Virus record (IMG/VR): IMGVR_UViG_2529293240_000016
Direction: 5' to 3' (one strand)
DNA from: a virus
Taxonomy: Duplodnaviria > Heunggongvirae > Uroviricota > Caudoviricetes
Length of the DNA stretch: 15,032 nucleotides
Position numbers and translations under genes: made by a program. The notes under the pieces were generated by a model. The model saw only the letters and a program-made list of their open reading frames with translations, had not been told where the DNA came from and made no database searches. The number at the start of each line of letters is the position of its first letter. Positions within the stretch are counted from its first letter, which is position 1. This document shows, one piece after another, positions 4,459-4,674 of this stretch.

Positions 4459-4674
4459 GTCTACCTGAGTAAAGAAAAATACATTTAATTCAGTGCATTA
4501 AGTTAGGTAGATAGCCTTTTTTTACTGTCTACCCACTATCTACCCTCTCTACCTGATTTTACCTGAATCAGACAGGGAGGTAGACACGGGGTAGATAGTG
4601 GATAAAAGCACTCTACCCCGCTGAAAGCAGCGCCATTACTGGCATGAGGGCCACTAAGGTAGATAAGGTAGACA
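4459..4674. repeat. Iteron array: at least 10 copies of GGTAGA(C/T)A in both orientations; candidate origin of replication
   Basis: Forward copies at 4506, 4579, 4590, 4658, 4667; reverse (TCTACC) copies at 4459, 4527, 4538, 4548, 4612; AT-rich flanks; immediately downstream of the primase/helicase stop. Confidence 0.65.

What the first reader, a model, noticed from the sequence alone, without database searches (positions are those of the whole stretch)
4459..4674. Dense bidirectional GGTAGA(C/T)A iteron array downstream of the primase: candidate satellite ori
At least ten copies of an 8-bp motif, five per orientation, sit in about 215 bp between the primase stop and the next ORF, with AT-rich flanks. 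This is the classic signature of an initiator-binding origin as found next to rep genes in PICIs and SaPIs. The motif differs from the P4 TGTTCACC iteron I recall, so initiator specificity probably differs.
Basis: partly seen in the sequence, partly recalled or inferred. Interest (0 to 1): 0.6.

Follow-up and report, generated by a model that had tools for sequence, protein, structure and literature searches.

The report
Known phage-satellite replication origin (iteron array)
The repeat cluster is real and is the replication origin of an E. coli phage satellite (PICI); it is about 95-97% identical to the EcCICFT073 origin that was tested experimentally in 2018, so it is a correct call but an already known feature.

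Summary
Observation confirmed. There are ten GGTAGA cores, five per strand, in window 4458-4674 and only one more in 15 kb. Eight match GGTAGA(C/T)A exactly (0.35 expected by chance). The array fills the gap between the stop of an IS1-split P4-alpha-like "primase" (Pri-Rep) and the next ORF.

Interpretation supported, but already known. The segment is about 95-97% identical to the region just 3' of pri-rep in EcCICFT073. The published primers show that this region is exactly what separates the replicating pri-ori plasmid from the impaired pri-delta-ori plasmid (Fillol-Salom 2018).

New supporting evidence:
- The Pri-Rep C-terminus is homologous to the P4 alpha origin-binding winged helix (PDB 1KA8).
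- In seven diverged E. coli alleles the cores are conserved while the spacers drift.
- In 80 related loci from other genera the same array layout recurs with different 6-8-bp words (<< 40-bp AT > <<< >> < >>).
- The word tracks the "wing" segment of the winged helix.
- P4's TGTTCACC differs from TGTCTACC at two central bases.

This copy lacks one 9-bp iteron, and its initiator gene is broken by IS1, so it is probably silent unless the initiator is supplied in trans.

Novelty: already known. Interest: low.

The parts
1918..2816 (+). N-terminal part of the Pri-Rep initiator gene (P4-alpha-like SF3 helicase, annotated 'DNA primase family'), cut off by IS1
   Evidence: Pfam D5_N. blastn against the intact HM670 gene. 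Joining it to 3594-4443 restores an uninterrupted 582-aa ORF.
2817..3584 (-). IS1 insertion (768 bp) with a 9-bp target-site duplication GTACATGAT at 2808-2816 and 3585-3593
   Evidence: InsB / DDE_Tnp_IS1, E=1e-73. Insertion boundaries and duplication.
3585..4443 (+). C-terminal part of Pri-Rep: the SF3 helicase core plus the C-terminal origin-binding domain
   Evidence: Pfam DUF5906 and Pox_D5. PDB 7OLA (SaPI5 PriRep5), E=3e-9, and 1KA8 (P4 alpha origin-binding domain), E=3e-7. TIGR01613.
4150..4425 (+). Winged-helix origin-binding domain of Pri-Rep. Putative recognition helix at 4309-4362; 'wing' HEYITRKVKGVTQTNAIT at 4363-4416.
   Evidence: Residues 194-285 align to 1KA8 residues 2-92. Coordinates. 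The wing segment tracks the iteron word across relatives. Naming the helix and wing is inferred from winged-helix topology (PMC2777425).
4458..4465 (-). Iteron 1 (GGTAGACA). EcCICFT073 and HM670 carry two copies here; this copy has lost one 9-bp unit, CTGTCTACC.
4466..4505 (.). 40-bp AT-rich spacer (77.5% AT), the candidate DNA-unwinding element
   Evidence: Most AT-rich 40-mer class in the window, top 0.06%. A 35-50-bp spacer sits at this position in most relatives and is AT-rich in most. The 2018 paper proposes the AT-rich region as the melting site.
4506..4513 (+). Iteron 2 (GGTAGATA)
4526..4553 (-). Iterons 3-5 (GGTAGACA, GGTAGATA, GGTAGAGA), starts 11 and 9 bp apart
4579..4597 (+). Iterons 6-7 (GGTAGACA, GGTAGATA), starts 11 bp apart. 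With iterons 2-5 and 8 they form a 51-nt imperfect dyad (arms 4494-4544 and 4579-4629).
4610..4617 (-). Iteron 8 (GGTAGAGT)
4621..4647 (.). Conserved block that is not an iteron: CTGAAAGCaGCGCCATTACTGGCATGA. Function unknown.
   Evidence: Largely conserved (CATTACTG invariant) in seven E. coli alleles whose other spacers have diverged. In the GGTGAA-word loci with the same layout (L020, L062) this gap is instead 83-86% AT.
4658..4674 (+). Iterons 9-10 (GGTAGATA, GGTAGACA), starts 9 bp apart
4691..4722 (+). Conserved leader and ribosome-binding block (AAAACTTTTTAAACGAGGGGGTAAAAATAAAT) just before the next ORF
   Evidence: 16 or more invariant columns in seven alleles. It lies inside the published 'ori' fragment.
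4723..5001 (+). Downstream 92-aa ORF (phrog_1231, unknown function). Its first ~23 nt are included in the published pri-ori fragment.

Best explanation
The array is the vegetative replication origin of an EcCICFT073-type phage-inducible chromosomal island. Here the replication module is joined to a capsid-forming packaging module.

Proposed mechanism. The island's Pri-Rep protein is an SF3 helicase-initiator related to P4 alpha and to the SaPI Reps. It binds the rGGTAGAyAg iterons through its C-terminal winged-helix domain. Neighbouring sites are 9-11 bp apart, about one helical turn. The sites are arranged in opposed groups, which would let helicase rings assemble on both sides of the 40-bp AT-rich spacer (4466-4505). 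That spacer melts, the helicase loads itself, and host enzymes copy the excised circle.

State of this copy. The initiator gene is split by IS1 and one of the first two iterons is deleted. The origin is probably inactive unless a compatible Pri-Rep is supplied in trans.

Shown: the repeats, their conservation, the homology to a tested origin, and the domain homologies. Shown by others, for the 95%-identical homologue: dependence of plasmid maintenance on this segment and on pri-rep. Inferred: which domain reads the word, the melting site, and double-ring loading.
For: 1. Statistics and location.

2. Identity to a tested origin. The segment is about 95-97% identical to the EcCICFT073 and HM670 intergenic regions. 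Primer EcCICFT073-rep-3c, the end of pri-delta-ori, maps to L003 10980-11000, which is window 4427-4447. Primer rep-2c, the end of pri-ori, maps to about L003 11287-11307. The published 'ori' is therefore window ~4448-4745. The paper reports that pri-ori replicates, delta-pri does not, and delta-ori is significantly reduced.

3. Domain homology. Pri-Rep residues 194-285 of the C-terminal fragment match the P4 alpha origin-binding domain 1KA8 (E=3e-7). The core matches SaPI5 PriRep5, 7OLA (E=3e-9).

4. Footprint. In seven E. coli alleles, some only about 75% identical, core columns are 74% invariant against 32% for other columns. Most site positions and orientations are kept.

5. Conserved layout. 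In many of the 80 loci from other genera an array of 6-13 words starts about 16-35 bp after the stop codon, with the same layout but different words. Compare CFT073 (<17 <26 >72 <94 <105 <114 >145 >156 <178 >224 >233) with Raoultella and its GGTGAA word (<17 <27 >68 <91 <102 <110 >140 >152 <185 >227 >235).

6. Word tracks the wing. L020 and L025 are 81% identical in the rest of the domain but 30% in the wing, and their words differ (GGTGAA, GTAGAC). L020 and P4 are 49% identical in the rest and 56% in the wing, and share the word GGTGAACA.

7. No second cluster exists in the window or in EcCICFT073.

8. The SaPI literature describes the same logic: a winged helix, 6-12 iterons just downstream of rep, a central AT-rich region and self-loading (PMC9371898).
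Against: - No binding or replication data exist for this exact copy.
- Its initiator is disrupted and it has one iteron fewer than any close E. coli relative; no complete E. coli genome matches at 99% or more.
- In the published assay, deleting ori reduced colony numbers significantly but is not described as abolishing them.
- The published deletion also removes the conserved non-iteron blocks 4621-4647 and 4691-4722, so it does not isolate the iterons themselves.
- One pair, L011 and L013, has nearly identical wings (89%) but different words, GGTATACAC and ATGAACAC. The wing is therefore not a simple sole determinant.
- No recognisable primase catalytic domain was found in Pri-Rep, so how priming occurs is open.
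Confidence: 0.9

Rival explanations
1. A crr-like auxiliary site rather than the start site. As in P4, the cluster downstream of the initiator gene would be a cis-required enhancer that cooperates with a separate true origin elsewhere in the island.
For: By position it corresponds to P4 crr. That site holds 10 annotated 8-bp type-1 repeats in both orientations within 300 bp, immediately downstream of alpha. P4 ori lies about 4.5 kb away.
Against: No second GGTAGA cluster exists in the window or in the whole EcCICFT073 locus; the maximum is 1 site per 250 bp outside the array. In EcCICFT073, pri-rep plus this segment alone maintained a plasmid. The array is not built from the two 120-bp direct repeats that define crr. 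The island's left end, with int and alpA, lies outside this window, but it is covered by L003.
Confidence: 0.05
2. An operator array. The repeats would chiefly be binding sites through which a regulator (Pri-Rep itself, AlpA or another island protein) controls transcription into the downstream genes.
For: The array sits between two co-oriented genes, directly upstream of a conserved leader and RBS block. Plasmid iterons often double as autoregulatory sites (general knowledge).
Against: No sigma-70-like promoter and no intrinsic terminator was found in 4300-4800. The word co-varies with the helicase-initiator's winged helix. Deleting the segment impairs plasmid maintenance. A secondary regulatory or copy-control role is not excluded.
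Confidence: 0.03
3. A packaging (cos or pac) recognition site for the island's own terminase.
For: The window encodes a complete head and packaging set: capsid, protease, portal, connectors, HNH and large terminase. Small-terminase binding sites are often short repeats.
Against: The same array is present in EcCICFT073-type islands, which lack these terminase genes and use helper cos sites treated separately from the ori. The array always follows the initiator gene, whatever the packaging module.
Confidence: 0.01

Closest known systems
EcCICFT073 pri-rep/ori module (Gram-negative PICI origin; Fillol-Salom et al. 2018, ISME J, PMC6092414)
   Same: Same chromosomal attachment site (roxA/phoQ). 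Same gene order: DUF4222, Pri-Rep, array, small ORF. The intergenic DNA is 95-97% identical, with the same iterons in the same order and orientation. That segment was shown to be needed, together with pri-rep, for plasmid maintenance.
   Different: This copy has 10 iterons rather than 11, through a 9-bp deletion. Its pri-rep is interrupted by IS1. The module is attached to a capsid-forming (cf-PICI-type) packaging block instead of the EcCICFT073 capsid/decoration genes.
Bacteriophage P4 crr and ori (alpha-protein type-1 iterons)
   Same: The initiator is homologous: 35% overall, with an SF3 core and a C-terminal winged-helix origin-binding domain, 1KA8. Both have octamer repeats in both orientations, and crr lies immediately downstream of the initiator gene. 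The words differ at only the two central bases (TGTTCACC, TGTCTACC).
   Different: P4 needs two separate clusters, ori and crr; here there is one. crr is two 120-bp direct repeats with a different internal layout. P4 alpha has an N-terminal zinc-finger/primase region that the PICI protein lacks.
SaPI origins (Staphylococcus aureus pathogenicity islands; Rep/PriRep self-loading helicases)
   Same: 6-12 short iterons lie immediately downstream of rep, with an AT-rich region between opposed iteron sets. They are read by a C-terminal winged helix of an SF3 helicase-initiator (PMC9371898). The helicase core is detectably homologous to SaPI5 PriRep5, 7OLA.
   Different: There is no DNA similarity. 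SaPI iterons are 5-6 bp. The layout here has three opposed groups rather than two simple sets. The host lineage and the island's regulatory scheme also differ.
Iteron plasmids (e.g. pSC101, R6K, RK2, F, P1)
   Same: Repeated initiator-binding sites lie next to an AT-rich unwinding element.
   Different: Plasmid iterons are typically 17-22-bp direct repeats, bound by RepA-family initiators that recruit host DnaA, DnaB and DnaC (PMC4980987 and general knowledge). Here the words are about 8-10 bp, occur in both orientations, and the initiator is itself a helicase. The only DnaA-box-like site (4597-4605) is not conserved in diverged alleles.
SV40 and papillomavirus core origins (large T antigen, E1)
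   Same: The working logic matches: an SF3 helicase with its own origin-binding domain, short words in inverted pairs, an adjacent AT-rich or easily melted segment, and assembly of two rings. This comparison rests on general knowledge; the link between SaPI Reps and E1 is made in PMC9371898.
   Different: This is an analogy only. The origin-binding domains are unrelated folds and the words differ. No test was made here.

Membership tests
Gram-negative PICI replication origin (EcCICFT073 type) | Lies immediately 3' of the pri-rep (initiator) gene | tested here: met
   The array starts 15 bp after the Pri-Rep stop codon (4441-4443) and ends 49 bp before the next ORF.
Gram-negative PICI replication origin (EcCICFT073 type) | [quoted passage not shown] | tested here: met
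   Ten iterons in opposed groups. The 40-bp, 77.5% AT spacer lies between iterons 1 and 2.
Gram-negative PICI replication origin (EcCICFT073 type) | Sequence homology to the experimentally tested EcCICFT073 ori fragment | tested here: met
   95-97% identity over the whole fragment bounded by the published primers.
Gram-negative PICI replication origin (EcCICFT073 type) | Resides in a PICI-type island (specific att site, unidirectional operon, no lysis or tail genes) | tested here: met
   The island abuts phoQ as EcCICFT073 does. Its genes are DUF4222, Pri-Rep and a head/packaging set only. The int/alpA end lies outside the window.
Gram-negative PICI replication origin (EcCICFT073 type) | Supports Pri-Rep-dependent replication | not testable with these tools
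   Shown only for the EcCICFT073 homologue. This copy has one iteron fewer and a broken initiator gene.
Bacteriophage P4 ori/crr | Type-1 octamer TGTTCACC | tested here: not met
   The window has no copy, and P4 has no GGTAGA.
Bacteriophage P4 ori/crr | Two separate cis elements (ori and crr), with crr built of two 120-bp direct repeats | tested here: not met
   There is a single cluster in the window and in EcCICFT073. No long direct repeat is present.
Bacteriophage P4 ori/crr | Initiator with an alpha-type C-terminal origin-binding winged helix | tested here: met
   1KA8 match, E=3.3e-7, residues 194-285. Pfam Pox_D5.
SaPI-type origin | Short iterons immediately downstream of rep, with at least two on each side of an AT-rich region pointing in opposite directions | tested here: inconclusive
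   The general pattern is present. In this copy, however, only one iteron remains to the left of the AT-rich spacer, where close relatives have two. The criterion is taken from PMC9371898.
Iteron-plasmid origin (RepA/pi/TrfA type) | 17-22-bp direct repeats, conserved DnaA boxes, and a Rep protein that is not a helicase | tested here: not met
   The words are 8-10 bp and occur in both orientations. The single DnaA-box-like site is not conserved. The initiator is an SF3 helicase.

The most novel reading that the evidence does not exclude
The family of enterobacterial satellite origins would keep a fixed 'grammar' (<< AT-spacer > <<< >> < >>) while swapping the 'word'. The word would be set mainly by a short, exchangeable wing segment of the initiator's winged helix, here HEYITRKVKGVTQTNAIT. 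Wing and word switching together would define replication-specificity groups among co-resident satellites. An island whose initiator is dead, such as this IS1-hit copy, could still be replicated in trans by a resident island of the same word class. I found no statement of the wing-word relation or of the conserved layout across words in the searchable literature. Fig. 2a of the 2018 paper may show part of it.
Probability: 0.4. Interest if true: 0.45.

Novelty: already known. Interest (0 to 1): 0.2.

Why it matters
As an origin call it adds nothing new. It re-finds the EcCICFT073-type PICI origin, and does so correctly from sequence alone.

Its practical value is for annotation. The segment marks the replication module of a satellite whose initiator has been knocked out by IS1. 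That predicts an island which cannot amplify on its own after induction.

The comparative by-product may be more useful. The origin layout is the same across genera while the words change with the initiator's wing. This gives a simple way to predict which satellites share replication specificity, and it suggests clean swap experiments.

Tried and rejected
- Literature search for the motif strings (GGTAGACA and variants) returned only unrelated primer hits. The iteron sequences in Fig. 2a of the 2018 paper are in the figure and could not be read.
- A single-sequence AlphaFold2 model of the C-terminal domain was poor (mean pLDDT 55, wing region below 50). It was not used. The wing assignment rests on the alignment to 1KA8 and on standard winged-helix topology.
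- The promoter and terminator scan of 4300-4800 found nothing. A weak TTACTG-N18-TAGATA reading was considered and dropped, because the -10 part falls in iterons that vary between alleles.
- The only DnaA-box hit is TTATCCACt at 4597-4605. It is absent from diverged alleles and was rejected as a conserved component. No IHF consensus and no GATC is present.
- Rfam gave only far sub-threshold microRNA-hairpin matches, which reflect the dyad symmetry.
- The printed primer rep-2c did not match the CFT073 locus (L003) even with up to 3 mismatches allowed. It differs from the genome by one base (an indel), probably a transcription error in the supplement, and was placed by eye.
- The N-terminal 150 residues of Pri-Rep matched no Pfam, NCBIfam or PDB entry.
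- In many Xenorhabdus/Photorhabdus and some Proteus/Aeromonas loci the simple k-mer count found only 3-5 copies of a candidate word. Their arrays were left unclassified.

Full report
**1. The observation**

The sequence between the stop codon of the upstream gene (TAA, 4441-4443) and the ATG of the next ORF (4723) holds ten copies of the core GGTAGA. Five lie on each strand, at 4460-4672, and there is only one other copy in the whole 15,032-bp window.

Shuffles expect 0.35, and none of 200 reaches 8. The other two are GGTAGAGA and GGTAGAGT. Oriented and aligned, the word is rGGTAGAyAg.

Adjacent copies are 9 or 11 bp apart. The central part of the array forms a 51-nt imperfect dyad.

The 40 bp between the first and second copy (4466-4505) are 77.5% AT. 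Only 0.06% of all 40-mers in the window reach that value.

Outside such arrays the core occurs at 0.07-0.18 per kb, including in 45 kb of CFT073 chromosome. There are never more than 2 copies per 250 bp, against 10-11 in the array. The corrections are small: the array starts at 4458, two copies deviate at position 7, and the main AT-rich tract is inside the array rather than flanking it.

**2. Context**

The upstream gene is a P4-alpha-like helicase-initiator. It has D5_N, DUF5906 and Pox_D5 domains and hits TIGR01613.

The gene is split by a 768-bp IS1 at 2817-3584, which carries a 9-bp target duplication, GTACATGAT. Removing the IS and one duplicate restores an uninterrupted 582-residue protein.

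Downstream lie small ORFs of unknown function and then a head and packaging set: capsid, protease, portal, head closure, adaptor, HNH and large terminase. The window ends in phoQ, which is 99.8% identical to E. coli.

In E. coli CFT073 and HM670 the same roxA/phoQ site holds an island with integrase, an AlpA-like regulator, DUF4222, the same initiator, a small ORF and SSB. The CFT073 island is EcCICFT073, the prototype Gram-negative PICI.

The window's element is a mosaic. Over 3585-5001 it is 98% identical to the HM670 replication module. Its packaging block is the one found in O103:H2 strains and others.

**3. It is the published origin**

Window 4380-4730 aligns over its full length with the EcCICFT073 and HM670 intergenic regions at a mean column identity of 96%. 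The only structural difference is that the window lacks one 9-bp unit, CTGTCTACC, of the first iteron pair.

Fillol-Salom et al. (2018) state that the region immediately 3' of the initiator gene is the origin in PICIs. [quoted passage not shown] They tested EcCICFT073 pri-ori, pri-delta-ori and delta-pri-ori plasmids. The pri-ori plasmid gave colonies at the restrictive temperature, the delta-rep plasmid did not, and deleting ori significantly reduced colony numbers.

Their supplementary primers locate the constructs:
- The reverse primer of pri-delta-ori ends at L003 11000, four bases past the stop codon. This is window 4427-4447 with one mismatch.
- The reverse primer of pri-ori lies at about L003 11287-11307, inside the start of the next ORF. 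The printed primer differs from the genome by one base.

The finding is a correct rediscovery of a known and tested feature.

**4. Additional evidence on how it works**

(a) Domain homology. The last ~92 residues of the initiator match the crystal structure of the P4 alpha origin-binding domain (1KA8, E=3.3e-7). The helicase core matches SaPI5 PriRep5 (7OLA, E=3.2e-9), a self-loading SF3 helicase-initiator.

(b) Spread and footprint in E. coli. 502 of 5,426 complete E. coli genomes carry a related segment, always chromosomal. In seven alleles, some only about 75% identical, the cores are kept at most positions and in the same orientation while the spacers and iteron positions 7-8 drift. Core columns are 74% invariant and other columns 32%.

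(c) Conserved layout in other genera. A scan of one genome per species returned 80 loci encoding relatives of the initiator. In many of them, 6-13 copies of a short word lie within about 250 bp after the stop codon, roughly half on each strand. The word differs between lineages:
- GGTAGA in 23 of the 82 loci classified, including E. coli, Shigella, Rosenbergiella, Xenorhabdus, Raoultella and Pantoea
- the P4-like GGTGAACA in 12 loci
- ATGAACAC
- GGTATACA
- GGTAGGG
- AACTGTCCG
- CAGTGAC

The layout is the same across words. CFT073 reads <17 <26 >72 <94 <105 <114 >145 >156 <178 >224 >233. A Raoultella locus using GGTGAA reads <17 <27 >68 <91 <102 <110 >140 >152 <185 >227 >235.

(d) The word tracks one protein segment. 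This segment follows the third helix of the domain, and by winged-helix topology it is the beta-hairpin wing (for the topology; inference). GGTAGA loci read EY-x-TR-x-[IV]-[KN]-G-x-x-QTN. GGTGAACA loci, including P4, read Y-x-KR-x-TK-x-G-I-x-[ST]-N.

Three natural contrasts bear on this:
- L020 and L025 are 81% identical in the rest of the domain but 30% in the wing, and they use different words.
- L020 and P4 are 49% identical in the rest and 56% in the wing, and they share a word.
- L011 and L013 have 89% identical wings but different, related words. A few residues may suffice to change the word, or other parts of the domain contribute.

**5. Most likely mechanism**

Pri-Rep binds the iterons through its winged helix. 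Sites one helical turn apart and in opposed groups organise helicase rings on either side of the AT-rich spacer. The spacer melts and the helicase loads itself, as proposed for the SaPI Reps. The excised island is then replicated by host enzymes.

Homology, conservation and co-variation are shown here. Dependence of replication on this segment is shown by others for the 95%-identical homologue. The roles of the wing, the melting site and ring geometry are inferred.

The PICI protein lacks the N-terminal zinc-finger/primase region of P4 alpha. Its first ~150 residues match no family or structure. Whether it primes at all is open.

**6. Comparison with P4 and others**

The window has none and P4 has no GGTAGA. 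The two words differ only at the two central bases (TGTTCACC, TGTCTACC).

By position the array corresponds to P4 crr, which lies directly downstream of alpha and holds ten octamers in both orientations. P4 also needs a distant ori, and crr is two 120-bp direct repeats. Neither is true here. The array works like the P4 and SaPI origins but is a member of the EcCICFT073-type PICI origin family.

It does not fit classical iteron-plasmid origins. Its words are short and occur in both orientations, its initiator is a helicase, and it has no conserved DnaA box.

**7. Rivals**

- A crr-like helper without initiation activity is unlikely, because there is a single cluster and a minimal plasmid replicates.
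- A purely transcriptional operator is unlikely, because there is no promoter or terminator consensus and the word follows the helicase's binding domain. A secondary regulatory or copy-control role is not excluded.
- A packaging site is unlikely, because the array follows the initiator gene whatever the packaging module.
- Chance is excluded.

**8. This particular copy**

The initiator gene is inactivated by IS1. One of the first two iterons is missing, and no complete E. coli genome has a match of 99% or better to this version. Single first iterons occur naturally in Raoultella and Pectobacterium relatives, so the deletion need not be disabling. Without an initiator supplied in trans, however, the origin should be silent. 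Some E. coli genomes hold up to three related arrays, so complementation in trans is conceivable but untested.

**9. Verdict**

The feature is already known, and interest is low (0.2). The conserved layout with changing words, and the wing-word relation, are modest comparative additions. I did not find them stated in the searchable literature, and they are directly testable by swap experiments.

Noticed in passing
window 2808-3593: A complete 768-bp IS1 (InsB on the minus strand) sits inside the Pri-Rep gene, with a 9-bp target duplication GTACATGAT. Excising it in silico restores an intact 582-aa ORF, so the insertion looks recent.
   Followed up: yes
window 1918-2370 (Pri-Rep residues 1-150); alignment A2: The protein is annotated 'DNA primase family' but lacks the zinc-finger/primase region at the N-terminus of P4 alpha. 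Its first ~150 residues match no Pfam, NCBIfam or PDB entry. This N-terminal part is also the most variable region among E. coli alleles. It may not be a primase at all.
   Followed up: partly
window 4621-4647: The block CTGAAAGCaGCGCCATTACTGGCATGA lies in the 40-bp gap between iteron 8 and iterons 9-10 and is not an iteron. It is largely conserved (CATTACTG invariant) in seven E. coli alleles whose other spacers have diverged. In the GGTGAA-word loci with the same layout (L020, L062) the same gap is 83-86% AT instead. Its function is unknown; it could be a host-factor or priming site.
   Followed up: partly
window 4691-4722: AAAACTTTTTAAACGAGGGGGTAAAAATAAAT, just before the next ORF, is almost invariant across alleles. 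That is more than a ribosome-binding site alone would need. It lies inside the published 'ori' fragment, so its contribution was never separated from that of the iterons.
   Followed up: no
window 4597-4605 (minus strand): TTATCCACt matches the DnaA-box consensus at 8 of 9 positions, between iterons 7 and 8. It is present in CFT073 and HM670 but absent from the diverged alleles L004-L008.
   Followed up: yes
window 3585-5001 compared with 5002-12475: The island is a mosaic. The replication module is 98% identical to the EcCICFT073-like HM670 island. The packaging block (capsid, protease, portal, connectors, HNH, terminase) is of the capsid-forming PICI type seen in O103:H2 and other strains. 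The window also lacks the SSB gene that follows the small ORF in the relatives.
   Followed up: partly
loci L011 and L013 (Pseudocitrobacter faecalis, Escherichia sp. ESNIH1): Two initiators have 97% identical origin-binding domains and differ by only two residues in the wing segment (T/N and V/M). They are followed by arrays of different words, GGTATACAC and ATGAACAC. This is a possible minimal specificity switch.
   Followed up: partly
loci L031-L065 (Xenorhabdus, Photorhabdus, Proteus): Many genomes hold several copies of related initiator genes, up to five loci in Xenorhabdus innexi. Their downstream regions show only 3-5 copies of a candidate word such as GATGTATAG. These arrays may be more degenerate, or use longer words that the k-mer count missed.
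   Followed up: no
window 1-950: The first 950 bp, including a 248-aa ORF running from the window edge, have no match in the HM670 island and no Pfam or PHROG family.
   Followed up: no
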